From Clostridia bacterium (lineage in GTDB: Bacteria > Bacillota > Clostridia > UBA1381 > UMGS1253), in the NCBI GenBank assembly GCA_045652745.1, contig JAZRUW010000015.1:3120-67119 (forward strand): a stretch of DNA of 64,000 nt. Direction: 5' to 3'. Within the stretch, counting starts at the first letter, position 1. The number at the start of each line of letters is the position of its first letter. The notes below the pieces were generated by a model that had not been told where the DNA came from, searched no databases, and was given only the letters and a program-made list of their open reading frames with translations. Positions 7,930 to 61,014 of the stretch are shown here, one piece after another. A program made the translations under genes and the position numbers.

Positions 7930-8021
7930 GTGCCCTAAAAAGTGATAAACTGTTGACAATAGGGGAAAAATATGATATATAAATAAGATAGGTTTGTATA
8001 TTAAAAATGAGGTGCACGGAT

Positions 8022-9395
8022 ATGTATATTAGTGAACTTTTCCAGAAAAAAGATGAGTTTCTCGGTAAGGAAGTCACCATAAGCGGCTGGGTGAGAAATC
8101 ACCGTAAGCAAAAGAACATGGGCTTTATCGATTTTTATGATGGTACTGCATTTAACCTCTTGCAGCTTGTATATGATACCTCCAATACGGCGGTGCAGGC
8201 AGTTGCAAGCACATTAAAGGTAGGCTGTAGCGCAAAGGTTACAGGTAAGGTGGTTGTAAACGAAGGCAACGGCTCGATTGAAATTGAACTTTCCGCCGCT
8301 GAAATTTTGGGCACTTGTGATGAAGATTATCCGATTCAGCCGAAAAAGCACTCTTTGGAATTTCTCAGAGAAAATGCGTATCTGCGCCCGAGAACAAGAT
8401 TATTCCAGGCGGTATTTAAAATCCGCAGCGTGGCATCCATGGCGATTCATGAGTATTTTCAAAATAACGGCTATGTTTATGTGCATACGCCGCTGTTTAC
8501 CGCAAACGATGCCGAGGGTGCAGGCAGCACCTTTACCGTAACGACCTTAGACCCCATCAGCACCGAAAAGCAGGATTATGCAGACGATTTCTTCGGTCAG
8601 CATACCTCCTTGGCCGTAACCGGTCAGCTCGAGGGTGAAACATTTGCGCTGGCATTTTCCAAGATTTACACCTTTGGTCCGACCTTCAGAGCGGAAAATT
8701 CCAACACCCGTACCCATGCATCCGAATTCTGGATGATTGAGCCGGAAATCGCTTTTGCCGACCTCTCCGATTTGATGGATGTCGAGGAGGATTTCTTAAA
8801 GAGCATCCTTAAAACCATCATGGAGCGTTGCCCGCTCGAGCTCGAATTCCTTGAAAAATACAACGGCGTTGCGCTCCGTGAGCGAATGACCGCTTTGATA
8901 AATTCCGATATCGTGCGTCTGCGCTTTGAAGATGCCATCACCATCTTAAAAGAAGCCGATGCAACCGAAAACTTTGAATTCAAGCCGGACTACAACGAAG
9001 ACCTTGCACGTGAGCATGAAAAGTACCTCACCGAAAAGCACTTCAATGCACCTGTCTTTGTCTATGACTGGCCGAAGGAATTCAAAGCCTTCTACATGTA
9101 TCAAAACGACGACGGCAAAACCGTTGCCGCCGTTGACCTTCTCGTTCCTGCTGCCGGCGAACTCATGGGCGGCAGTCAGCGTGAAACCCGTTACGACCGT
9201 CTTACCGGCCGCATGAACGAACTCGGCATCGCCCCCGACTCCCTCTGGTGGTACTGCAACCTCCGCAAATACGGCGGCTGTACCCACTCCGGCTTCGGTA
9301 TGGGCTTCGAGCGACTCTTAATTTATGTAACCGGTATGGAAAACATCCGTGATGTAATACCTTACCACAGAACCCCGCGCAGCTGCGATTTCTAA
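8022..9395 (+). CDS. asnS: asparagine--tRNA ligase
   Basis: ATG at 8022 (MYISELF). N-terminal OB-fold region, class II motif 2 (FRAENSNTRTHASEFWMIEPE) and motif 3 (GFGMGFERL) are present. Confidence 0.9.
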   Translation: MYISELFQKKDEFLGKEVTISGWVRNHRKQKNMGFIDFYDGTAFNLLQLVYDTSNTAVQAVASTLKVGCSAKVTGKVVVNEGNGSIEIELSAAEILGTCDEDYPIQPKKHSLEFLRENAYLRPRTRLFQAVFKIRSVASMAIHEYFQNNGYVYVHTPLFTANDAEGAGSTFTVTTLDPISTEKQDYADDFFGQHTSLAVTGQLEGETFALAFSKIYTFGPTFRAENSNTRTHASEFWMIEPEIAFADLSDLMDVEEDFLKSILKTIMERCPLELEFLEKYNGVALRERMTALINSDIVRLRFEDAITILKEADATENFEFKPDYNEDLAREHEKYLTEKHFNAPVFVYDWPKEFKAFYMYQNDDGKTVAAVDLLVPAAGELMGGSQRETRYDRLTGRMNELGIAPDSLWWYCNLRKYGGCTHSGFGMGFERLLIYVTGMENIRDVIPYHRTPRSCDF

Positions 9396-9608
9396 TCTGA
9401 AAGGTAAATTTTGCACAATACTTCGTTGGCATCCTCGCGCATATAAGAATATAGCGCTGTGGTGCGCCTCGTCTTGCATCAAAATTTCCTCTTTCAGCAG
9501 ATGCAAGATGGTTTGCCGCCGTTTGCGCCTGGTACTGCATCCAAATTTCATAAGGCAAGTTTGAGACTGAGGGATTGTAATATTAAACAAAGAAAGGGAG
9601 GTTTTCGT

Positions 9609-10616
9609 ATGAAAAGATCGTTTATTCCGGACGGCTATGTACCGCCGCTGGACGATTATGATATGCAAAGAGCGATTGAAAGCGTTAAGTCGGTATTCCA
9701 GAAGGAGTTTGCCGAGGCGCTGAATTTAAAGCGCGTTTCTGCGCCGCTGTTTGTAACGGAAAGCTCCGGCTTAAATGATAACTTAACCGGTTCCGAGCGT
9801 CCGGTATCCTTTGATATTCCGGCGGTAGGCAAGGATGCGCAGATTGTGCAATCGCTTGCCAAGTGGAAGAGATTGGCATTAAAACGCTATAACTTCACCG
9901 TGGGCAAGGGTCTTTACACCGATATGAATGCGATTCGCCGTGATGAAGACTTAGATAATATCCATTCCATCTATGTAGACCAATGGGATTGGGAAAAGAT
10001 TATTCCGCGCGAAAAGCGCACGCTTGACTATTTAAAGAAAGTGGTAACTGCGATTGTAGAGGCGATTTGCGAAACCTGTGACCAGCTGCACGCAAAGTAT
10101 CCGCAACTGAAGACCTCGCTTTCCCGTGATGTGAAATTTATCACCTCGCAGGAGCTTGAGGATATGTATCCGCACATGACCGGACACGAAAGAGAAAATG
10201 CATATACCAAGGAGCACAAGACCGTATTTATCATGCAAATCGGCGAAAAACTGCGTTCGGGCAAGCCGCACGATAACAGAGCGCCGGACTATGACGACTG
10301 GCAGTTAAACGGCGATTTGCTGTTCTGGAATGAACCGCTCGATGCGGCGCTGGAGATTTCGTCGATGGGTATTCGCGTAGATGCGCAGTCGCTCGATTAC
10401 CAGCTCAATGCGGCAAATTGCAATGACCGTCGTGAATTGGAATTCCACCGTATGCTTTTAAATGATGAGCTTCCGCTCACCATCGGCGGCGGCATCGGAC
10501 AGTCGCGTCTTTGTATGCTGATGATTGGCTGTGCGCACATCGGTGAGGTGCAGTCGAGTATCTGGGATGCGCATACCGTGCAGCTTTGCCAAAGATGTGG
10601 CGTAAAGTTATTATAA
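9609..10616 (+). CDS. asnA: aspartate--ammonia ligase (asparagine synthetase A)
   Basis: ATG at 9609 follows AAGGGAGG. AsnA-type sequence (RVSAPLFV..SGLNDNL ... GGGIGQSRLCM), 335 aa. The upstream in-frame extension from 9459 was rejected. Confidence 0.9.
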   Translation: MKRSFIPDGYVPPLDDYDMQRAIESVKSVFQKEFAEALNLKRVSAPLFVTESSGLNDNLTGSERPVSFDIPAVGKDAQIVQSLAKWKRLALKRYNFTVGKGLYTDMNAIRRDEDLDNIHSIYVDQWDWEKIIPREKRTLDYLKKVVTAIVEAICETCDQLHAKYPQLKTSLSRDVKFITSQELEDMYPHMTGHERENAYTKEHKTVFIMQIGEKLRSGKPHDNRAPDYDDWQLNGDLLFWNEPLDAALEISSMGIRVDAQSLDYQLNAANCNDRRELEFHRMLLNDELPLTIGGGIGQSRLCMLMIGCAHIGEVQSSIWDAHTVQLCQRCGVKLL

Positions 10617-11547: not shown

Positions 11548-11576
11548 TTGACAAATGCTTTTTGAGGGCATATAAT
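11548..11576 (+). promoter_or_regulatory. sigma-A promoter of the T-box leader
   Basis: TTGACA (11548-11553), 17-nt spacer, TATAAT (11571-11576). Confidence 0.75.
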
Positions 11577-11599
11577 CATTATAAATTTGAATATCACAA

Positions 11600-11866
11600 A
11601 AAGACTGTGACGAGGACGGTCGGATTGCGAAACCTTGAGAGAGTTGCCGGACGGTGCGAGGCAATGGCGGAGCTTTCCAATGACCTATCACCTCTGAGTC
11701 GAAGGACCGAAAACGAAAGTGAGTAGACTCCTTCCGTATTGCTGCGTAAAGGCAAAGGGCTTGTTGGAGCTCGGTGAGTGACGGAATAAATTTTTATTTC
11801 CGTAATTTGAGTGGTACCGCGGGTGATTATAACTCGTCTCAAAGTTTTCTTTGAGACGGGTTTTTT
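11600..11866 (+). promoter_or_regulatory. T-box leader RNA (tRNA-sensing transcription attenuator), probable AUC (Ile) specifier
   Basis: The conserved T-box sequence AATTTGAGTGGTACCGCGGG lies at 11804-11823. Stem I has a GA/K-turn (GUGACGA..CUGA), an AGAGAG bulge and a GGUGCGA distal loop. A terminator CGTCTCAAAG/CTTTGAGACG plus T6 lies at 11835-11866. The specifier loop 3' side reads U-AUC-A (AUC at 11687-11689). Confidence 0.85.
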
Positions 11867-11925
11867 GTTTTATTCAGATTTGTAACCACATATTAGATTT
11901 GTCAGAATGGAAAGGGGACAAAACC

Positions 11926-14226
11926 ATGGATTACAGTTTGAAAGAGGTAGCGGGCAGAATCGTGGAATTGCGCGAGGCAAAAGGCTACACGCAGGAAGAA
12001 CTTGCAAAACTTACCGGCGTAACGGTAGAGGATTACAAGGTTTTGGAGCAGGGCGAAACAGACTTTAGTTTTACTTTTATCTACAAATGCGCCAAGGCCT
12101 GCGGCGTAGAAGTTGTAGATTTGCTCGAAGGCACAAGTACAACGCTTAAATCGTTTGCGATTACGAGAAAAGGCGAAGGTCTTAAAATCTTAAAGAAGCA
12201 CGGCGTGGAGTATGACAACCTTGCACCGAAGTTTAAAAATAAACTTGCAGAGCCGTTCCTTGTTAAGTTTCCGTATCTGGAAGAAGAGCAGAATGCACCG
12301 ATTAAGCTGAGCTCGCATAAGGGTCAGGAATTTGACGTCATTGTCAAGGGTGCGCTCAAGGTGCAGGTAGGCAGCCACGTTGATGTTTTGCGTGAGGGTG
12401 ACTCCATTTTCTATGACAGCACCATTCCGCACGGTATGATTGCGGCAAGCGAGGGCGGCTGTGAATTTCACGCGGTTGTTTTGAATCCGCAGGACGGTCA
12501 GGTCAGCGAGGAGTATCCGGAAACGCCGTACACCGCAGTTAAAGTAGCAGATAAAAAGGCAAAGTACGAAACGGTTGCAGATAAATATGTCGAGTCTTCC
12601 TATGATGAAAACGGCGTGTTTAACGGCATCACGTTTAAAAACGAAGACAAATTTAACTTCGCGTTCGACTGTGTGGATGCGATTGCGAAAAAGAACCCCG
12701 ACAAGCTGGCGATGATGTGGGTGGCAAATGACAAGACGGACAGAAAATTCACCTTCAGCGACATGAAAAAGTATTCTGCAAAAACCGCGAACTACTTTGA
12801 ATCGCTCGGTATCAAAAAAGGCGATACGGTTATGCTTGTCTTAAAAAGACATTATCAGTTCTGGTTTAGTATGCTTGCGCTTCATAAAATCGGCGCGATT
12901 GCAATTCCGGCAACCAATCAGCTTGTAGAGCATGACTTTGATTACAGATATAAGGCGGCCAAGGTAAAAGCCATCGTTTGTACCGCAGACGGTGAGGTTT
13001 CGGATGAGGCGGAAAAGGCGGCTGCAAATTATCCGGGCATGGTGAAAGTTTTGGTTGGGGGGAAAAAAGACGGTTGGCACGATTTCAATGTGGAAATGGA
13101 GCGCTTCAGTACGCACTATTACCGCACGGAAAACACACCTTGCGGCGATGCGCCGATGCTGATGCTCTTTACATCGGGCACAACGGGATATCCGAGAATT
13201 GCAACGCATTCGTACAAATATGCACTCGGCCACTATCCGACCGCAAAGCACTGGCACAACGTAAATCCGGACGGACTCCACTTTACAATCTCCGATACCG
13301 GCTGGGGTAAGGCACTCTGGGGTAAACTTTACGGACAGTGGCTTTGCGAGGCAGGCATATTTACCTACGATTTTGACAGATTCCATTCGGAAGATATTTT
13401 GCCGATGTTTGCAAAATACAATATCACCACCTTCTGCGCTCCGCCGACGATGTACCGATTCTTTATCAAAGAAGATTTGTCCAAGTATGACCTTTCTTCG
13501 ATCGAGTATGCGACAACAGCGGGTGAAGCATTGAATCCGGAAGTGTTCAATCAGTTTAAAAAAGCAACAGGCCTTACCATTATGGAAGGCTTCGGCCAGA
13601 CGGAAACAACGCTCTCCATCGCAAACTTTGTCGGCTCCAAACCGAAAATCGGCTCCATGGGCAGACCGAGTCCGTTGTATGACGTTGTTGTTTTAGATCC
13701 GGACGGCAATGAATGCAAAACGGGCGACGCAGGTGAAATCTGCATCCGCGTCAAAGACGAAGTACCTTGCGGTCTTTTTATCGGCTACTACTTGGATGAA
13801 GAAAAAACCAAAGAAGTATGGCATGACGGTTATTACCATACCGGCGACCAGGCGACGATGGATGAAGACGGCTATTTGTGGTATGTCGGCAGAATTGATG
13901 ATGTTATCAAATCCTCCGGTTACCGCATCGGACCTTTTGAAATCGAAAGCGTTATCATGGAGCTTCCGTATGTTTTAGAGTGCGCAATCACACCGGTGCC
14001 GGATGAAGTGCGTGGTCAGATTGTAAAAGCGACTATCGTGCTTGTGAAAGGTACAGAGGGAACGGACGCACTGAAGAAGGAAATTCAGGAATATGTAAAA
14101 ACGCATACTGCGCCGTACAAATATCCGAGAATTGTCGAGTTTGTGGAAGAACTTCCGAAAACCATCAGCGGTAAAGTAAGACGTGTTGAAATCCGTAAAA
14201 ACGACTTGGAAAAATTGAATAAATAA
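11926..14226 (+). CDS. fusion protein: XRE-type HTH + cupin domain + AMP-forming medium-chain acyl-CoA synthetase
   Basis: ATG at 11926 follows GGAAAGGGG. HTH segment (GYTQEELAKLTGVTVEDYKVLEQGE), cupin segment (GDSIFYDSTIPHGM), then adenylate-forming motifs (LFTSGTTGYPR, SDTGWGKALWG, GYYHTGD, PKTISGKVRR). Confidence 0.85.
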   Translation: MDYSLKEVAGRIVELREAKGYTQEELAKLTGVTVEDYKVLEQGETDFSFTFIYKCAKACGVEVVDLLEGTSTTLKSFAITRKGEGLKILKKHGVEYDNLAPKFKNKLAEPFLVKFPYLEEEQNAPIKLSSHKGQEFDVIVKGALKVQVGSHVDVLREGDSIFYDSTIPHGMIAASEGGCEFHAVVLNPQDGQVSEEYPETPYTAVKVADKKAKYETVADKYVESSYDENGVFNGITFKNEDKFNFAFDCVDAIAKKNPDKLAMMWVANDKTDRKFTFSDMKKYSAKTANYFESLGIKKGDTVMLVLKRHYQFWFSMLALHKIGAIAIPATNQLVEHDFDYRYKAAKVKAIVCTADGEVSDEAEKAAANYPGMVKVLVGGKKDGWHDFNVEMERFSTHYYRTENTPCGDAPMLMLFTSGTTGYPRIATHSYKYALGHYPTAKHWHNVNPDGLHFTISDTGWGKALWGKLYGQWLCEAGIFTYDFDRFHSEDILPMFAKYNITTFCAPPTMYRFFIKEDLSKYDLSSIEYATTAGEALNPEVFNQFKKATGLTIMEGFGQTETTLSIANFVGSKPKIGSMGRPSPLYDVVVLDPDGNECKTGDAGEICIRVKDEVPCGLFIGYYLDEEKTKEVWHDGYYHTGDQATMDEDGYLWYVGRIDDVIKSSGYRIGPFEIESVIMELPYVLECAITPVPDEVRGQIVKATIVLVKGTEGTDALKKEIQEYVKTHTAPYKYPRIVEFVEELPKTISGKVRRVEIRKNDLEKLNK

Positions 14227-14344
14227 TATGAAAAGACGGGCGTTTTTAAAACGTTCGTCTTTTTTGTGCATATTTTGTATTGAAATGAATATCGTTTTGT
14301 GATATAGTATACGCTGTAGATTTTTGGGAATTGAGGTAAAACGT

Positions 14345-57000: not shown

Positions 57001-60000
57001 TTAGTATTCAATTACGCCCTCGTATACGAGTTCTGCGTTACCCGTCAGGTATACAGCTTTATCTGTATAGCGAACGATGAGCTCGCCACCCTTGACGCGA
57101 ACAACGATGTCCTCGTCTTTTAAGCAGTAGCCGTTTTCAACAGCTGCAACTACGGCCGCACACGCGCCTGTACCGCAGGCCGGTGTTTCGCCGTTGCCGC
57201 GCTCCCATACGCGCATACGGATGGTTTTGTTGTCAACCACGCGTACGAATTCTGTATTGATACGTTCCGGGAAGAGTTCGCTGTTTTCAAATTGCGGTCC
57301 GATTTCGGCAACGTCAATATTGTCTACACGGTCGCAGAATACGACGCAGTGCGGATTGCCCATGGAAACACAGGAAATATTGTATGTCTTGCCGCCGATG
57401 GTGACAGGCTCGTTGATAATTTTTTCTTTATCAAAGTTTGCCGGCAGTTTTTCCGGTGCAAATTCTGCCTTGCCCATGTTCACACAAGCACTGCGCACCA
57501 GACCGTTGTAGAGGTATACTTTTACCTCTTTAATACCGCTGGCGGTTTCGATGGTCATCTTTTCTTTCTTGACAAAATCATTGTCGTAGAGATATTTAGC
57601 AACACAACGGATGGAGTTGCCGGCCATCTGACCTTCGCTGCCGTCTACGTTGAACATGCGCATCTTCATATCGGCAATGTGTGATTTTTCAATCAAAACC
57701 ATACCGTCGCCGCCGATGCCGTAATGACGGTCGGTAAAGTTGATAGCGAGCGGTTCCGGACAAGTGATTTTGCCCTTATAGTTGTCGAAGAAGATATAGT
57801 CATCGCCCGTGCCCTGCATTTTGAGGAACTTGAGTTTTTGTTTGTTTGTTCTGAGCGCGGTGATGTTTACAAGTTCGGTATTTTGTTGGTTAAAGCGACT
57901 TAAGATGATATCTGCGAGGGCATTTGCGGTATCCGGGCTGGTAAGACAGGCTACGGACAGACGAAGTGCCTGCATATGCAGTTTGATGTACGCTTCAATT
58001 TCCTCCGGCTTGCCGCCGTTGGTGTAAACGATGTAATCAAATGCCTTGTTTTCCAGCATTTCGCTGACGTTTTCATCGGCAACGGCAACGACATCAATGC
58101 CGAGCGCTTCGATTAATTCTGCGCATGCCGGAGCAGCATAGATTTTGATTTTTGCATCGTCGAATTTCTTTGCAAGCTGCAGAAGCTCGTAGCGGTCTTT
58201 CATGTGCATGTTGATATACACGCCGTTTCTGCCCTGCAGATTAAAGCCTGCGGAAACCAGACCCTTAAAGAGTGCTTCGTTTAAGGTTCTGCCGATACCG
58301 AGCACTTCACCGGTGGACTTCATTTCCGGACCGAGAATCGAGTTGATGCCCGAAAGCTTTTCAAACGAGAACACCGGTACCTTTACGGTAAAGTACGGGG
58401 AGGATTTATACAATCCCGTGCCGTAACCGAGCGATTTTAAAGGCTCGCCCTGCATTACGCGTGTCGCCAAATCGACCATCGGAACACCCGTTACCTTACT
58501 GATGTACGGTACGGTTCTCGATGCACGCGGATTTACCTCGATAACGTAAAGCTCATTTTGGTAAATGAGGTACTGAATGTTGATTAAGCCCTGTGTCTTT
58601 AAAGAAAGCGCAAGTTTTTCGGAGCAGGAGATAATCTTTTCGAGCATGATGTCGCTTACGCTAAACGGCGGATATACGGCAATCGAGTCACCGCTGTGTA
58701 CGCCGGCACGTTCTACGTGTTCCATGATACCCGGAATGAGGACATCTTCACCGTCGGAGATAACGTCCACCTCGAGTTCCTTACCCATCATATATTTGTC
58801 GATGAGCACCGGATTTTCTATTCTTTGCGCCAAAATCATGTTCATGTAGCGTTCTACGTCTTCGTTGGTATGTGCGATGGTCATGTTCTGACCGCCGATA
58901 ACATAGGACGGACGAAGCAGTACCGGGAAGCCTAAAGTGTTTGCCGCTTCAAGCGCACCTGCCATATCCATAGCGGTGAGCGCCTGCGGACGCTTGATGG
59001 AAAAACGCTCCAAAAGTGCGTCAAACTGTTCGCGGTCTTCGGCCATATCAATGCTCTCCGCGCTGGTACCTAAAATCTTGATACCGCTTTCGGATAAGAA
59101 TTTAACCAGCTTGATTGCAGTCTGGCCACCGAAGGCAACTACGACACCGCTCGGCTTTTCCACCTCAATGACGTTCATAACGTCTTCCGGTGTCAGCGGT
59201 TCGAAATACAAACGGTCTGCTGTATCGAAGTCTGTGGAAACGGTTTCCGGATTGTTATTGATAATGACAACCTCGTAGCCCATTTTCTTGAGTGTCCATA
59301 CACAGTGTACGGAAGAGTAGTCAAACTCAATACCCTGGCCGATACGAATCGGGCCGGAGCCGAGCACGATGATTTTTTCGCCGGTAGTTTCCAGTTCGCG
59401 CGCTTCACAATGGTTGTCGTAACTGGAGTAGAAATACGGGGTTTGCGCCTTAAACTCGCCGCCGCAGGTATCTACCATCTTGTAGACACAACTTTTGTGC
59501 ATCGGCACTTTGCAGCCCGAAAGTCTTTCCAATGCTGCATCCGGATAGCCGAGTTTTTTACCTTCCAGATATTTTGCTTCATCTAAATTGCCCGGAAGCG
59601 AATTCTCGAATGCAACCAGATTTAAAAGTTTAGACAAAAACCACTTGTCAATTCTGGTGATTTCGTGAATTCTGTCCAGACTTACGCCGCGGCGAAGCGC
59701 TTCGTAAACTGCAAAAATTCTCTGGTCGTCCATGCGCGCCATTGCGGCTTCGATGTCCTCTTCTTCCTGCATCTTCTTCAGTTGCAGGGTGTCGAGGCCG
59801 ATTTCTGCACCGCGTACCGCTTTCATAATCGCCATTTCAAAAGTCGGACCGATGGACATAACCTCACCGGTGGCTTTCATGGCTGTGCCGAGCTTGCGCT
59901 GTGCGTAAACGAACTTATCAAACGGCCATTTCGGGAATTTTACAACAATATAGTCAACAGCCGGCTCGAAGCACGCCCATGTGCTGCCGGTTACGTCGTT

Positions 60001-61014
60001 TCTGATTTCGTCTAAGGTATAGCCAAGCGCAATTTTGGTGGTTACCTTTGCAATCGGATAGCCTGTTGCCTTACTTGCAAGCGCACTTGAACGCGATACG
60101 CGCGGGTTTACCTCGATAACCGCATAGTCAAAGCTGTTCGGGTCAAGGGCAAACTGTACGTTACAGCCGCCTTCGATTTTCAGCGCGGTGATGATGTCGA
60201 GCGCCGCCTGGCTGAGCATAGTGTATTCTTTTTTGGAGAGTGTTACGGCCGGAGCCACAACGATGGAGTCACCGGTATGAATACCTACCGGGTCAAAGTT
60301 TTCCATCGAGCAGATGGTGATGGCGTTGCCGGCGGCATCGCGCATAACCTCAAACTCTACTTCTTTCCAGCCGTAGATGTATTTTTCTACAAGAATCTGT
60401 GTAATCGGGGAGAGCAAAAGACCATTTGCGGCGATTTTGCGGAATTCATCCTCATTATAGGCCACACCGCCGCCTGCACCGCCTAAGGTAAAGGCCGGAC
60501 GGATGATGACCGGATAGCCGATGCGCGTTGCAATTTCGGTTGCAGCCTCCAAATCCGTTGCAATATCTGACGGGATACACGGCTGACCGAGTTCGAGCAT
60601 CGTCTGCTTAAACAAATCGCGGTCTTCGGCTTTGATGATGGCTTCTTCATTTGTACCGATGAGTTTTACACCCATGCGGGACAAAAAGCCTTCCTCGGAA
60701 AGTTGCATTGCAATTGTCAGACCGGTCTGCCCGCCGAGAGAAGCGAGCAAACTGTCCGGACGCTCTTTTTCAATAATACGCTTAATGGTTTCCGGCGTAA
60801 GCGGCTCTAAATAGATTTCGTCCGCCATGGCCTTATCGGTCATGATGGTTGCCGGATTGGAATTCACAAGCACGATGTCGAGGCCCGCGTCTTTTAATAC
60901 GCGGCAAGCCTGCGTGCCTGCATAGTCAAATTCTGCGGCCTGGCCGATTACAATCGGGCCGGAGCCGATGACGAGTACTTTTTTAATATTCGGATTTAAC
61001 GGCATATCATTCAC
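57001..61014 (-). CDS. carB: carbamoyl-phosphate synthase large subunit fused in-frame to diaminopimelate epimerase
   Basis: Residues 1 to about 1055 read as a full CarB (two ATP-grasp halves plus an MGS-like domain). Then, with no stop, comes KLKFLKMQGTGDDYIFFD ... GNSIRC ... VSMGNPH ... ERGNGETPACGTGACA, which is a complete DapF. 1337 aa in total. Confidence 0.8.
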   Translation of the reverse strand: MNDMPLNPNIKKVLVIGSGPIVIGQAAEFDYAGTQACRVLKDAGLDIVLVNSNPATIMTDKAMADEIYLEPLTPETIKRIIEKERPDSLLASLGGQTGLTIAMQLSEEGFLSRMGVKLIGTNEEAIIKAEDRDLFKQTMLELGQPCIPSDIATDLEAATEIATRIGYPVIIRPAFTLGGAGGGVAYNEDEFRKIAANGLLLSPITQILVEKYIYGWKEVEFEVMRDAAGNAITICSMENFDPVGIHTGDSIVVAPAVTLSKKEYTMLSQAALDIITALKIEGGCNVQFALDPNSFDYAVIEVNPRVSRSSALASKATGYPIAKVTTKIALGYTLDEIRNDVTGSTWACFEPAVDYIVVKFPKWPFDKFVYAQRKLGTAMKATGEVMSIGPTFEMAIMKAVRGAEIGLDTLQLKKMQEEEDIEAAMARMDDQRIFAVYEALRRGVSLDRIHEITRIDKWFLSKLLNLVAFENSLPGNLDEAKYLEGKKLGYPDAALERLSGCKVPMHKSCVYKMVDTCGGEFKAQTPYFYSSYDNHCEARELETTGEKIIVLGSGPIRIGQGIEFDYSSVHCVWTLKKMGYEVVIINNNPETVSTDFDTADRLYFEPLTPEDVMNVIEVEKPSGVVVAFGGQTAIKLVKFLSESGIKILGTSAESIDMAEDREQFDALLERFSIKRPQALTAMDMAGALEAANTLGFPVLLRPSYVIGGQNMTIAHTNEDVERYMNMILAQRIENPVLIDKYMMGKELEVDVISDGEDVLIPGIMEHVERAGVHSGDSIAVYPPFSVSDIMLEKIISCSEKLALSLKTQGLINIQYLIYQNELYVIEVNPRASRTVPYISKVTGVPMVDLATRVMQGEPLKSLGYGTGLYKSSPYFTVKVPVFSFEKLSGINSILGPEMKSTGEVLGIGRTLNEALFKGLVSAGFNLQGRNGVYINMHMKDRYELLQLAKKFDDAKIKIYAAPACAELIEALGIDVVAVADENVSEMLENKAFDYIVYTNGGKPEEIEAYIKLHMQALRLSVACLTSPDTANALADIILSRFNQQNTELVNITALRTNKQKLKFLKMQGTGDDYIFFDNYKGKITCPEPLAINFTDRHYGIGGDGMVLIEKSHIADMKMRMFNVDGSEGQMAGNSIRCVAKYLYDNDFVKKEKMTIETASGIKEVKVYLYNGLVRSACVNMGKAEFAPEKLPANFDKEKIINEPVTIGGKTYNISCVSMGNPHCVVFCDRVDNIDVAEIGPQFENSELFPERINTEFVRVVDNKTIRMRVWERGNGETPACGTGACAAVVAAVENGYCLKDEDIVVRVKGGELIVRYTDKAVYLTGNAELVYEGVIEY

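What the first reader, a model, noticed from the sequence alone, without database searches (positions are those of the whole stretch)
11548..14226. T-box leader (probable Ile specifier) controlling an HTH-cupin::medium-chain acyl-CoA synthetase fusion
The T-box is clear: it has the conserved AATTTGAGTGGTACCGCGGG, a K-turn, an AG bulge, a distal loop and a terminator. In my hand-fold, the specifier loop 3' side is only U-AUC-A and sits directly above the GAGG/CCUC helix. That makes AUC (Ile, 11687-11689) followed by the conserved purine the best reading. The loop is atypically small, so this assignment is tentative.
The regulated gene is not an aaRS, a biosynthetic enzyme or a transporter. It is a 766-aa fusion of an XRE HTH, a cupin and an ACSM/MACS-type adenylating enzyme (SDTGWGKALWG). 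An archaeal enzyme of this family is, as I recall, reported to prefer 2-methylbutyrate.
Inference: uncharged tRNA-Ile may induce activation of 2-methylbutyrate to its CoA ester for reductive carboxylation to the isoleucine keto-acid. This route is known physiologically in rumen and gut anaerobes. A DNA-binding domain fused to the enzyme is also unusual, in the manner of BirA or PutA.
Basis: partly seen in the sequence, partly recalled or inferred. Interest (0 to 1): 0.65.

Follow-up and report, generated by a model that had tools for sequence, protein, structure and literature searches.

The report
Isoleucine T-box controlling branched-acid CoA ligase
A tRNA-sensing RNA switch that reads isoleucine starvation turns on an enzyme that most likely activates 2-methylbutyrate so the cell can rebuild isoleucine from this fermentation acid, which points to genes and a control logic for a rumen nutritional requirement known since the 1960s.

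Summary
Window 11598-11844 is a full-length T-box leader (RF00230, 90.6 bits, E=1.4e-20, 2.4 bits below the gathering score). It has a perfect promoter and a terminator, and it precedes a 766-aa HTH_3 + Cupin_2 + AMP-binding fusion.

The specifier is AUC (11687-11689). The Rfam alignment places it there. It is invariant in 77 orthologous leaders. It lies in an unusually small specifier loop with no S-turn, and the flanking helices show strong covariation (17 of 22 pairs compensatory).

- A monophyletic paralogue clade of the same fusion sits behind T-boxes with Val codons (GUA/GUC).
- That clade carries a perfectly correlated G461A change on the acyl-pocket segment.
- In 20 related loci the T-box-controlled fusion lies upstream, on the same strand, of a VorB-type 2-oxoacid:ferredoxin oxidoreductase cluster; in 11 of them the gap to the next gene is only -4 to +18 nt.
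- The closest characterised enzymes, MacsMa and MbcS, prefer 2-methylbutyrate and isobutyrate.
- PaaK-like ligases in the same genomes sit behind Phe T-boxes.

The role of the HTH-cupin module is unresolved. It is as conserved as the enzyme and keeps an invariant His/Glu/His set. It is a separate upstream gene in other taxa. Biochemistry is untested.

The parts
11548..11576 (+). Sigma-70-type promoter: TTGACA, 17 nt, TATAAT
   Evidence: 12 of 12 consensus matches. TTGACA and a -10 box recur at the same distance in orthologous leaders.
11583..11597 (+). Near-invariant element AAATTTGAATATCAC between the -10 box and Stem I. Function unknown: candidate operator or conserved 5' end of the transcript.
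   Evidence: Conserved in 72 main-family leaders while the surrounding promoter spacer varies. Divergent leaders carry only a loose A(A/T)T(T/C)GAATA.
11598..11844 (+). T-box leader RNA (RF00230): Stem I, Stem II, IIA/B, Stem III, antiterminator
   Evidence: cmscan 90.6 bits, E=1.4e-20, model 1-219 of 219
11603..11700 (+). Stem I: K-turn, small specifier loop without S-turn, AG bulge (11638-11642), distal loop (11649-11659)
   Evidence: Structure counted on 77 sequences: 97.5% of cells paired, 17 of 22 pairs with compensatory change, 0 of 500 shuffles as good, slid controls 26-52% paired
11687..11689 (+). Specifier codon AUC (Ile), followed by A 11690
   Evidence: Rfam alignment. Invariant in 77 orthologous leaders. 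Replaced by GUC/GUA in the paralogue clade.
11804..11823 (+). T-box sequence AAUUUGAGUGGUACCGCGGG. UGGU (11812-11815) would pair with the tRNA 3' NCCA end.
   Evidence: Rfam alignment. Exact GTGGTACCGCG found in 74 of 80 loci.
11831..11872 (+). Intrinsic terminator (14-bp stem, U-run). Its 5' arm overlaps the 3' arm of the antiterminator.
   Evidence: and the Rfam alignment of the antiterminator helix
11926..14226 (+). CDS, 766 aa: HTH_3 (nt 11965-12120), Cupin_2 (12304-12477), AMP-binding (12679-13788), AMP-binding_C (13939-14175). RBS AAAGGGG at 11911-11917.
   Evidence: Pfam. PDB 3etc_A E=1.3e-197. NCBIfam best hit is MbcS at 453 bits.
13306..13308 (+). Codon for Gly461 in DTGW-G-K, the residue that perfectly separates Ile-type (G) from Val-type (A) enzymes
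   Evidence: 44 of 44 Ile-type have G and 19 of 19 Val-type have A. It lies 4 residues before W465, which corresponds to MacsMa Trp259, the critical acyl-pocket residue (PMC10455477; numbering).
14233..14265 (+). Terminator-like hairpin plus T-run after the stop codon, so the gene looks monocistronic here
   Evidence: Read from the sequence. The scanner missed it because the loop is 9 nt. A separate promoter-like site precedes MatE at 14280-14308.

Best explanation
This is a transcription-attenuating T-box riboswitch specific for tRNA-Ile (specifier AUC). It controls a single gene for a branched short-chain acyl-CoA synthetase fused to an HTH-cupin module.

Proposed mechanism:
1. When tRNA-Ile is uncharged, its anticodon pairs with AUC in Stem I.
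2. Its free 3' end pairs with UGGU in the T-box bulge.
3. This stabilises the antiterminator over the terminator at 11831-11862, so the gene is transcribed.
4. The enzyme most likely converts 2-methylbutyrate, abundant in gut and rumen fluid, to 2-methylbutyryl-CoA.
5. A VOR-type 2-oxoacid:ferredoxin oxidoreductase, encoded elsewhere in this genome, reductively carboxylates that to 3-methyl-2-oxovalerate.
6. Transamination then gives isoleucine.

Shown here:
- The T-box, its specifier and its structure.
- The domain architecture.
- Conservation of T-box control across orthologues.
- The Ile/Val paralogue-specifier correlation.
- Same-strand linkage with VOR genes in relatives.

Inferred:
- The substrate.
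- The direction of flux.
- Antitermination by tRNA-Ile.

Unresolved: the role of the HTH-cupin module. Options are a ligand or metal sensor, a DNA-binding regulator, or both.
For: T-box and specifier:
-.
- All main-family orthologue loci with enough upstream DNA carry the leader with AUC.

Paralogue test:
- Model R1 found 70 leaders of the same S-turn-less type in divergent loci.
- All specifiers are branched-chain codons: AUC about 40, GUA 13, GUC about 11, CUC/CUG 4-5.
- AUC, GUA and GUC precede full-length fusions. CUC and CUG precede LeuA-like genes.
- The general Rfam model independently places GUA-G or GUC-G at the specifier position.
- The 19 Val-type proteins form one clade nested within the Ile-type.
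- Only four residues separate the types perfectly. One is G461A, next to the pocket Trp (PMC10455477). The Val-type has the bulkier residue, as expected if it uses the smaller acid, isobutyrate. MacsMa, which prefers 2-methylbutyrate, has Gly there.

Pathway partner:
- In 20 loci the fusion lies upstream, on the same strand, of a ParA-like gene and the VOR alpha, beta and gamma subunits. In 11 loci the fusion-to-ParA gap is -4 to +18 nt; in others it is 90 nt to 2 kb.
- The alpha subunit exceeds the NCBIfam cut-off for VorB (548 against 399).
- In L087 an aminotransferase follows the fusion genes.

Enzyme relatives:
- MacsMa prefers 2-methylbutyrate (PMC10455477).
- S. aureus MbcS is selective for 2-methylbutyrate and isobutyrate (PMC10026030). 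MbcS is the best NCBIfam hit.

Physiology: branched-chain volatile acids are used for Ile and Leu synthesis by rumen organisms (PMC10658910, PMC7356843).

Selection: about 90.6% amino-acid identity against about 37% identity at fourfold-degenerate sites. This indicates intense purifying selection rather than recent transfer.
Against: - No enzyme assay and no tRNA-binding assay has been done.
- No VOR, ilv or branched-chain aminotransferase gene was found among the roughly 27 window genes examined. The main-family gene has no conserved neighbours, so the pathway partner in this genome is assumed.
- The window T-box is 2.4 bits below Rfam's curated threshold.
- The specifier loop lacks the S-turn that normally presents the codon (PMC11404447), so function of this variant is inferred from conservation only.
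- The equivalog cut-off for MbcS is not reached (453 against 850).
- The assignment of G461 to the pocket rests on sequence proximity to Trp259, not on a measured distance.
- Several of the 20 VOR-linked loci have fusion-to-ParA gaps of 0.4-2 kb, so co-transcription is not supported for all of them.
Confidence: 0.75

Rival explanations
1. The enzyme supplies branched acyl-CoA primers for anteiso and iso membrane fatty acids, as MbcS does in S. aureus, rather than isoleucine. Isoleucine starvation removes the normal Ile-derived primer, so the T-box induces scavenging of 2-methylbutyrate for lipids.
For: MbcS is the closest curated family and has exactly this role (PMC10026030, PMC11167679). 2-Methylbutyryl-CoA could serve both fates.
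Against: In relatives the fusion lies upstream of VOR on the same strand, tightly linked in 11 loci, and once next to an aminotransferase. ACS followed by reductive VOR forms a linear route to the keto acid. An oxidative VOR would be redundant with the ligase and would consume the Ile precursor during Ile starvation. T-box regulons are dominated by charging, synthesis and uptake of the cognate amino acid (PMC3766115).
Confidence: 0.12
2. The Ile-type enzyme activates propionate. Propionyl-CoA is reductively carboxylated to 2-oxobutyrate, which enters the ordinary ilv pathway to isoleucine.
For: MacsMa adenylates C3 to C8 acids (PMC10455477). Ile-specific control would fit this route equally well.
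Against: MacsMa completes the CoA step efficiently only with 2-methylbutyrate (PMC10455477). The Val-type sister enzyme, whose logical substrate is isobutyrate (C4), has the bulkier residue at position 461 (Ala against Gly). This implies the Ile-type pocket takes a larger acid, not a smaller one. MbcS is also selective for 2-methylbutyrate and isobutyrate (PMC10026030).
Confidence: 0.08
3. The protein's main role is transcriptional. The XRE HTH-cupin part is a DNA-binding regulator, as in BirA or PutA. The T-box sets the dose of a regulator that controls other branched-chain genes or its own promoter, with the ligase domain generating or sensing the effector.
For: - HTH_3 and Cupin_2 domains are present.
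- The module is as conserved as the enzyme: 92-93% column identity.
- Three of the four type-discriminating residues lie in it.
- A near-invariant 15-nt element lies at the transcription start region.
- The architecture matches an XRE-cupin regulator structure, 1y9q.
Against: - The conserved element is not an obvious palindrome and is only loosely kept in divergent leaders.
- H131, E135 and H169 are invariant in all 55 homologues. The best full-length structural matches are HppE- and HEPD-type metal enzymes whose helical domain is not known to bind DNA.
- This reading is compatible with the best explanation rather than exclusive of it.
Confidence: 0.05

Closest known systems
Class I transcriptional T-box riboswitches (RF00230), for example Bacillus subtilis ileS, tyrS and the ilv-leu leader
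   Same: Stem I with K-turn, specifier codon plus 3' purine, AG bulge and distal loop. Also Stem II, IIA/B and III, a T-box bulge with UGGN, and competing antiterminator and terminator.
   Different: The specifier loop is reduced to 2 + 5 nt and lacks the S-turn (GAA/AGUA); a covarying 4-bp helix takes its place. The regulated gene is an acyl-CoA synthetase, with VOR downstream in relatives. It is not an aaRS, a de novo biosynthetic gene or a transporter. I found no such target in two T-box surveys (PMC2494555; PMC3766115 with supplements).
MacsMa, medium-chain acyl-CoA synthetase of Methanosarcina acetivorans (PDB 3ETC)
   Same: Residues 240-760 align end to end at E=1.3e-197 (roughly half of positions identical by eye). 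Gly replaces the Acs pocket Trp (FGQTET). The alternate pocket Trp (MacsMa W259, here W465), the DxGWGK motif and YHTGD are conserved (PMC10455477).
   Different: MacsMa has no HTH-cupin module and no T-box, being archaeal. Its physiological role is not established in the text I could read.
MbcS, methylbutyryl-CoA synthetase of Staphylococcus aureus
   Same: Best NCBIfam hit. A characterised enzyme selective for 2-methylbutyrate and isobutyrate (PMC10026030), the two substrates inferred here for the Ile- and Val-type paralogues.
   Different: The score of 453 bits is far below the equivalog cut-off of 850. MbcS feeds fatty-acid primer synthesis. It is not reported there to be T-box-controlled or fused to an HTH-cupin module.
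Reductive carboxylation of branched-chain volatile fatty acids to amino acids in rumen and gut anaerobes, via VOR-type 2-oxoacid:ferredoxin oxidoreductase
   Same: Relatives encode the ligase upstream of VorB-type alpha (548 bits against a cut-off of 399), beta and gamma subunits on the same strand. The physiology is documented (PMC10658910, PMC7356843).
   Different: The regulatory logic (tRNA charging sensed by T-boxes) and the identity of the activating enzyme were not found in the literature searched.
XRE-HTH + cupin proteins: regulator-like 1y9q, and HppE/HEPD non-heme-iron enzymes
   Same: Five-helix N-terminal domain followed by a cupin barrel. H131, E135 and H169 are invariant, at positions that fit part of the canonical cupin metal-binding motifs (my reading of the sequence).
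   Different: TM-scores are only 0.37-0.50, so the similarity is in architecture and not in detail. This module is fused to, or encoded immediately upstream of, a MACS enzyme. No function is known.
BirA and PutA, enzymes that are also repressors
   Same: A putative DNA-binding domain and an adenylating or catalytic domain in one polypeptide.
   Different: No evidence of DNA binding or of an operator. The primary control here is the RNA switch, not the protein.

Membership tests
T-box leader (RF00230) | Significant full-length match to the covariance model | tested here: met
   90.6 bits, E=1.4e-20, model 1-219 of 219
T-box leader (RF00230) | Reaches Rfam's curated gathering score (93 bits) | tested here: not met
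   90.6 bits in the window. Orthologous leaders range from 84 to 96 bits, and some exceed 93. The shortfall coincides with the deleted S-turn positions in the alignment.
T-box leader (RF00230) | Stem I with K-turn, AG bulge and distal loop, supported by covariation | tested here: met
   97.5% paired, 17 of 22 pairs compensatory, 0 of 500 shuffles as good
T-box leader (RF00230) | [quoted passage not shown] | tested here: met
   AUC-A-CCUC at 11687-11694. The following base is A in 67 of the main-family leaders, G in 4 and C in 6.
T-box leader (RF00230) | S-turn (loop E) motif in the specifier loop | tested here: not met
   The 5' AGUA positions are deleted in the Rfam alignment. GGUC/GACC forms a covarying helix instead. 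Absence of this motif has been noted in some streptococcal glyQ T-boxes (PMC11404447).
T-box leader (RF00230) | T-box sequence with UGGN bulge, and mutually exclusive antiterminator and terminator | tested here: met
   AAUUUGAGUGGUACCGCGGG at 11804-11823. The terminator at 11831-11862 shares CUCGUCUCAAAG with the antiterminator.
T-box leader (RF00230) | Antitermination dependent on uncharged cognate tRNA | not testable with these tools
   Needs in vitro transcription with tRNA-Ile
[quoted passage not shown] | AMP-binding and AMP-binding_C domains with core motifs | tested here: met
   PF00501 at 193 bits and PF13193 at 77 bits. YHTGD and GQTET are conserved.
[quoted passage not shown] | Gly in place of the Acs acetate-pocket Trp, and the alternate pocket Trp (MacsMa W259) | tested here: met
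   FGQTET and W465 in the alignment to 3etc_A, with residue roles from PMC10455477
MbcS (NF047394 equivalog) | Score at or above the curated equivalog cut-off (850 bits) | tested here: not met
   453.5 bits. It works like MbcS, but should not be filed as MbcS.
MbcS / MacsMa-like function | Preference for 2-methylbutyrate (and isobutyrate) | not testable with these tools
   Inferred from relatives and from the G461A correlation with Val specifiers
XRE-family HTH-cupin transcription regulators | HTH_3 and Cupin_2 domains | tested here: met
   PF01381 at 40 bits and PF07883 at 37.9 bits. The model shows five helices plus a barrel, mean pLDDT 80.7.
XRE-family HTH-cupin transcription regulators | Sequence-specific DNA binding to an operator | tested here: inconclusive
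   A conserved 15-nt element lies at 11583-11597, but it is not palindromic and is weakly kept in divergent leaders. The best structural matches include non-DNA-binding HppE.
VOR-dependent reductive carboxylation pathway | A 2-oxoacid:ferredoxin oxidoreductase genetically linked to, or present with, the ligase | tested here: inconclusive
   Not found in the window, and the rest of the genome was not available. In relatives it is met: 20 loci with same-strand ParA-like and VOR alpha, beta and gamma genes downstream, with VorB at 548 bits against a cut-off of 399.

The most novel reading that the evidence does not exclude
Gut and rumen Oscillospirales run a modular, tRNA-sensed salvage regulon for volatile fatty acids. 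Separate T-boxes (Ile, Val, Leu, Phe) each switch on a cognate acid-CoA ligase:
- HTH-cupin::MACS with Gly461 for 2-methylbutyrate.
- The Ala461 paralogue for isobutyrate.
- A TIM-barrel::AMP-binding fusion for isovalerate.
- A PaaK-like ligase for phenylacetate.

In many lineages a VOR gene cluster follows on the same strand. Specificity of switch and enzyme co-evolved: a codon change AUC to GUC/GUA together with a one-methyl change in the pocket. The fused HTH-cupin module, with its invariant His/Glu/His set, would be a second, metabolite-level sensor (keto acid, amino acid or acyl-CoA). It would tune either the enzyme or transcription, giving two-tier control.
Probability: 0.4. Interest if true: 0.8.

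Novelty: new variant of a known kind. Interest (0 to 1): 0.7.

Why it matters
Many cellulolytic and other gut anaerobes have been known for decades to need or benefit from branched-chain volatile fatty acids. These acids are added to ruminant diets. The activating enzymes and their regulation in Firmicutes are poorly defined.

This locus offers three things:
- **A candidate gene family.** It is present in more than 550 species-level genomes in the collection scanned and is under very strong purifying selection.
- **A control logic.** Induction depends on tRNA charging.
- **A natural specificity experiment.** Ile and Val paralogues differ at one pocket residue and one codon in the riboswitch.

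It also extends the known T-box regulon to a salvage route of carboxylic acid activation and reductive carboxylation. And it documents a conserved Stem I variant without the S-turn, which bears on how the specifier codon is presented to tRNA.

Tried and rejected
- **Single-sequence folding.** MFE folding of Stem I did not recover the T-box fold and was no better than shuffles (z=0.58). It was uninformative, so I used comparative analysis instead.
- **MacsMa sequence from memory.** This is not authoritative and was replaced by the PDB alignment.
- **Synteny search.** I looked for the window's neighbours in 80 orthologue loci and found none. Context in the main family is uninformative.
- **Heuristic specifier caller.** It worked for this clade but failed on canonical T-boxes. 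I replaced it with covariance model R1 and Rfam alignments.
- **Wrong-frame ORFs.** Three apparent 'other' genes behind T-boxes were wrong-frame ORFs in GC-rich DNA.
- **Antisense ORFs.** The second-largest neighbour cluster (74 loci) was an antisense ORF inside the fusion gene. I ignored it.
- **Window scan for VOR or ilv genes.** None found among the genes tested.
- **Recent horizontal transfer** as the reason for 90% identity without synteny. Rejected, because fourfold-degenerate sites are near saturation.
- **Primary papers.** The MacsMa papers and Vitreschak 2008 are not in the held library.
- **Prior reports.** Searches for T-box control of acyl-CoA ligases or VOR found nothing. The library is incomplete, so this is absence of evidence only.


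Full report
**1. What is at the coordinates**

- A perfect sigma-70-type promoter, TTGACA-17-TATAAT, lies at 11548-11576.
- It is followed by a full-length match to the Rfam T-box model at 11598-11844: 90.6 bits, E=1.4e-20, model positions 1-219 of 219.
- The match is 2.4 bits below Rfam's gathering score of 93. That is why a default scan of the whole window reported only a tRNA.
- A 14-bp terminator hairpin with a U-run lies at 11831-11862. Its 5' arm is the 3' arm of the antiterminator helix in the Rfam alignment.
- The ORF starts at ATG 11926, with an RBS AAAGGGG 8 nt upstream, and ends at 14226.
- Its 766-aa product has HTH_3 (residues 14-65), Cupin_2 (127-184), AMP-binding (252-621) and AMP-binding_C (672-750).
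- A hairpin plus T-run follows the stop codon (14233-14265). A separate promoter-like site precedes the next gene, MatE. The gene therefore looks monocistronic here.

**2. The specifier**

The Rfam alignment puts AUC (11687-11689) followed by A, directly before the CCUC strand of the basal helix. It deletes the 5' AGUA positions of the specifier-loop S-turn. Single-sequence folding was uninformative (z=0.58), so I used comparison.

A scan of one genome per species found more than 550 relatives. The best 80 are 88-93% identical over the full length and come from ruminant-gut Clostridia MAGs labelled Oscillospiraceae, Acutalibacteraceae, Ruminococcus and similar. Every locus with enough upstream DNA has the same leader about 110 nt before the gene.

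In an alignment of 77 Stem I sequences, ATC is invariant except in one paralogue leader, which has GTC.
- 97.5% of cells are paired.
- 17 of 22 pairs carry compensatory changes.
- None of 500 shuffles reaches any observed measure.
- Sliding the 3' partners by 1 to 3 columns drops pairing to 26-52%.
- All four pairs of the helix directly above the codon (GGUC/GACC) covary.

The specifier loop is therefore only 2 nt on the 5' side and Y-AUC-R on the 3' side, with no S-turn. The S-turn is described as generally conserved and as helping to present the codon, but its absence has been noted in some streptococcal glyQ T-boxes (PMC11404447).

**3. The enzyme**

Residues 240-760 align end to end with PDB 3ETC (E=1.3e-197). 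This is the Methanosarcina acetivorans medium-chain acyl-CoA synthetase. Its preferred substrate, and the only one for which it efficiently completes the CoA step, is 2-methylbutyrate (PMC10455477).

The closest NCBIfam model is MbcS at 453 bits, below the equivalog cut-off of 850. MbcS is the S. aureus enzyme selective for 2-methylbutyrate and isobutyrate (PMC10026030). Two features match the MACS type (PMC10455477):
- Gly replaces the acetate-pocket Trp of Acs.
- The alternate pocket Trp is conserved (MacsMa W259, here W465).

**4. Evolutionary behaviour**

The protein is about 90.6% identical between species, while fourfold-degenerate sites are only about 37% identical. This is long divergence under intense purifying selection, not recent transfer. 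The HTH (92%), cupin (93%) and enzyme (95%) parts are all constrained.

None of the window's neighbours is syntenic in any of the 80 loci. The conserved unit is therefore promoter, T-box and gene.

**5. The decisive comparative evidence**

A search of representatives at 50% identity showed more divergent full-length fusions, P0121 at 54% and P0125 at 42%. Their contigs carry two tandem fusion paralogues. Rfam placed AUC in the leader of one and GUC in the leader of the other.

I fetched 80 metagenomic relatives and searched them with a Stem I covariance model built from the tested structure (R1). This gave 70 hits of the same S-turn-less type. Their specifiers are all branched-chain codons:

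| Specifier | Amino acid | Count | Downstream gene |
|---|---|---|---|
| AUC | Ile | about 40 | full-length fusion |
| GUA | Val | 13 | full-length fusion |
| GUC | Val | about 11 | full-length fusion |
| CUC/CUG | Leu | 4-5 | LeuA-like gene |

Further points:
- The general Rfam model independently aligned GUA-G or GUC-G at the specifier position in six tandem loci.
- In a neighbour-joining tree, the 19 distinct Val-type proteins form one clade nested within the 44 Ile-type proteins.
- Only four alignment positions separate the types perfectly: T50A, position 91 to A, F/Y111L, and G461A in DTGW-G-K.
- Using the YHTGD motif to convert numbering (PMC10455477), G461 is MacsMa Gly255. It lies four residues before the pocket residue Trp259, and MacsMa has Gly there.
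- The bulkier Ala in the Val-type is the direction expected if that enzyme uses isobutyrate, which is one carbon smaller than 2-methylbutyrate. This also argues against propionate as the Ile-type substrate.

**6. The pathway partner**

Clustering the flanking ORFs of the divergent loci gave recurrent downstream genes. Pfam and NCBIfam identify them as follows:
- A ParA/CbiA-like P-loop NTPase.
- The alpha subunit (POR_N/PFOR_II), which scores 548 bits against a cut-off of 399 for '3-methyl-2-oxobutanoate dehydrogenase subunit VorB'.
- The beta subunit (TPP_enzyme_C).
- The gamma subunit (POR) of a 2-oxoacid:ferredoxin oxidoreductase.

In 20 loci the order on one strand is:

T-box[Ile]-fusion, then optionally T-box[Val]-fusion, then ParA-like, then VOR alpha, beta and gamma.

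In 11 of these loci the fusion-to-ParA gap is -4 to +18 nt, so co-transcription is very likely there. In the others the gap is 90 nt to 2 kb. The ParA-to-alpha gap of about 200 nt fits the small ferredoxin-like delta subunit seen in L168.

In L087 an aminotransferase follows the two paralogues. Ligase, VOR and transaminase together make up the reductive-carboxylation route from a branched acid to its amino acid. This route is physiologically documented in rumen organisms (PMC10658910, PMC7356843). It is met in relatives, but could not be made for this genome. The window genes examined include none of these.

**7. A wider pattern in the same genomes**

Other T-boxes in the orthologue loci control other acid-activating genes:
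- UUC (Phe) precedes a PaaK-like phenylacetate-CoA-ligase-type gene in four loci. It scores 533 bits on TIGR02155, below the cut-off of 646.
- CUC (Leu) precedes a TIM-barrel::AMP-binding fusion in L036.
- UAC (Tyr) precedes an SSF symporter in L075.

These are few cases, but they fit the same logic.

**8. The HTH-cupin module**
- It is not an accident of one lineage. In Raoultibacter phocaeensis and in a Ruminiclostridium MAG, a stand-alone HTH-cupin gene of 193-194 aa (about 50% identical) is immediately followed by a MACS gene.
- The Ruminiclostridium pair sits behind an AUC T-box of the same type. In Raoultibacter a VOR cluster lies about 3 kb away.
- H131, E135 and H169 are invariant in 55 homologues.
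- An AlphaFold model (mean pLDDT 80.7) has five helices plus a barrel. Its best full-length matches are HppE/HEPD-type non-heme-iron enzymes and an uncharacterised Vibrio HTH_3 regulator (TM-scores 0.37-0.50).
- A near-invariant element, AAATTTGAATATCAC (11583-11597), lies between the -10 box and Stem I. It is not palindromic and is only loosely kept in divergent leaders.

I cannot tell whether the module binds DNA, a metal-bound ligand, or both. Three of the four type-discriminating residues fall in it. This suggests it recognises something that differs between the Ile and Val systems.

**9. Comparison with what is known, and novelty**

The RNA is a T-box. All defining features tested are met except the S-turn and, by 2.4 bits, the Rfam gathering score. 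The enzyme is a MACS-type ANL enzyme that works like MacsMa and MbcS, but does not reach the MbcS equivalog threshold.

T-box control of an acyl-CoA synthetase or of VOR was absent from everything I could search:
- Two T-box regulon surveys (PMC2494555; PMC3766115 with supplements).
- Four full-text searches.

The library is incomplete, and Vitreschak 2008 was not readable. I rate this as a new variant of a known kind: a known switch type with a variant Stem I, controlling a new class of target that points to genes for an old physiological observation.

**10. Confidence**

| Claim | Confidence |
|---|---|
| T-box with Ile specifier | about 0.95 |
| Branched short-chain acid activation serving isoleucine supply through reductive carboxylation | about 0.75 |
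| 2-Methylbutyrate as the specific substrate | about 0.65 |
| Any specific role for the HTH-cupin module | low |

Noticed in passing
window 57001-61014 (-): A single 1337-aa ORF combines the carbamoyl-phosphate synthase large subunit (residues 4-1038) with a complete diaminopimelate epimerase DapF (residues 1062-1335). This is either an unusual fusion or a missed stop or frameshift.
   Followed up: no
L014 9572-9823, L025 9517-9765, L028 6515-6764, L072 1476-1724(-): T-boxes with a UUC (Phe) specifier precede a PaaK-like phenylacetate-CoA-ligase-type gene (TIGR02155, 533 bits against a cut-off of 646). This suggests tRNA-Phe-controlled phenylacetate salvage, parallel to the Ile case.
   Followed up: partly
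L036 2776-3028 and 3111-5645; L001 80-3623: A CUC (Leu) T-box precedes an 844-aa xylose-isomerase-like TIM barrel::AMP-binding fusion. In L001 and about 10-16 other loci, the same fusion follows a LeuA-like gene just upstream of the Ile T-box.
   Followed up: partly
L075 7953-8200 (-): A UAC (Tyr) T-box at 115.5 bits precedes a 511-aa sodium:solute symporter (SSF). The same symporter family recurs downstream of the fusion in 9 loci.
   Followed up: no
window 11583-11597: The near-invariant AAATTTGAATATCAC lies between the -10 box and Stem I in 72 leaders, while the flanking spacer varies. It is a candidate operator or a conserved transcript 5' end.
   Followed up: partly
L115 6483-7157 and 19 other loci; L168 2291-3091: A ParA/CbiA-like P-loop NTPase is consistently inserted between the fusion gene and the VOR subunits. 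It is also adjacent to VOR in Raoultibacter. It may be an Fe-S maturation or carrier factor for VOR.
   Followed up: no
window 8007-10616 (+): A class II aaRS of the Asp/Lys/Asn type is directly followed by aspartate-ammonia ligase AsnA. No T-box or other Rfam element lies upstream at E<=1e-3.
   Followed up: no
L110 1078-1179(-), L125 2532-2631(-), L095 6374-6475: LeuA-like genes next to the fusion operons carry Leu (CUC/CUG) T-boxes of the same S-turn-less Stem I type. The variant therefore marks a branched-chain T-box clade rather than one gene.
   Followed up: partly
window 11598-11844: The T-box scores 2.4 bits below Rfam's gathering threshold, as do many orthologous leaders (84-92 bits). 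Standard annotation will systematically miss this clade.
   Followed up: yes
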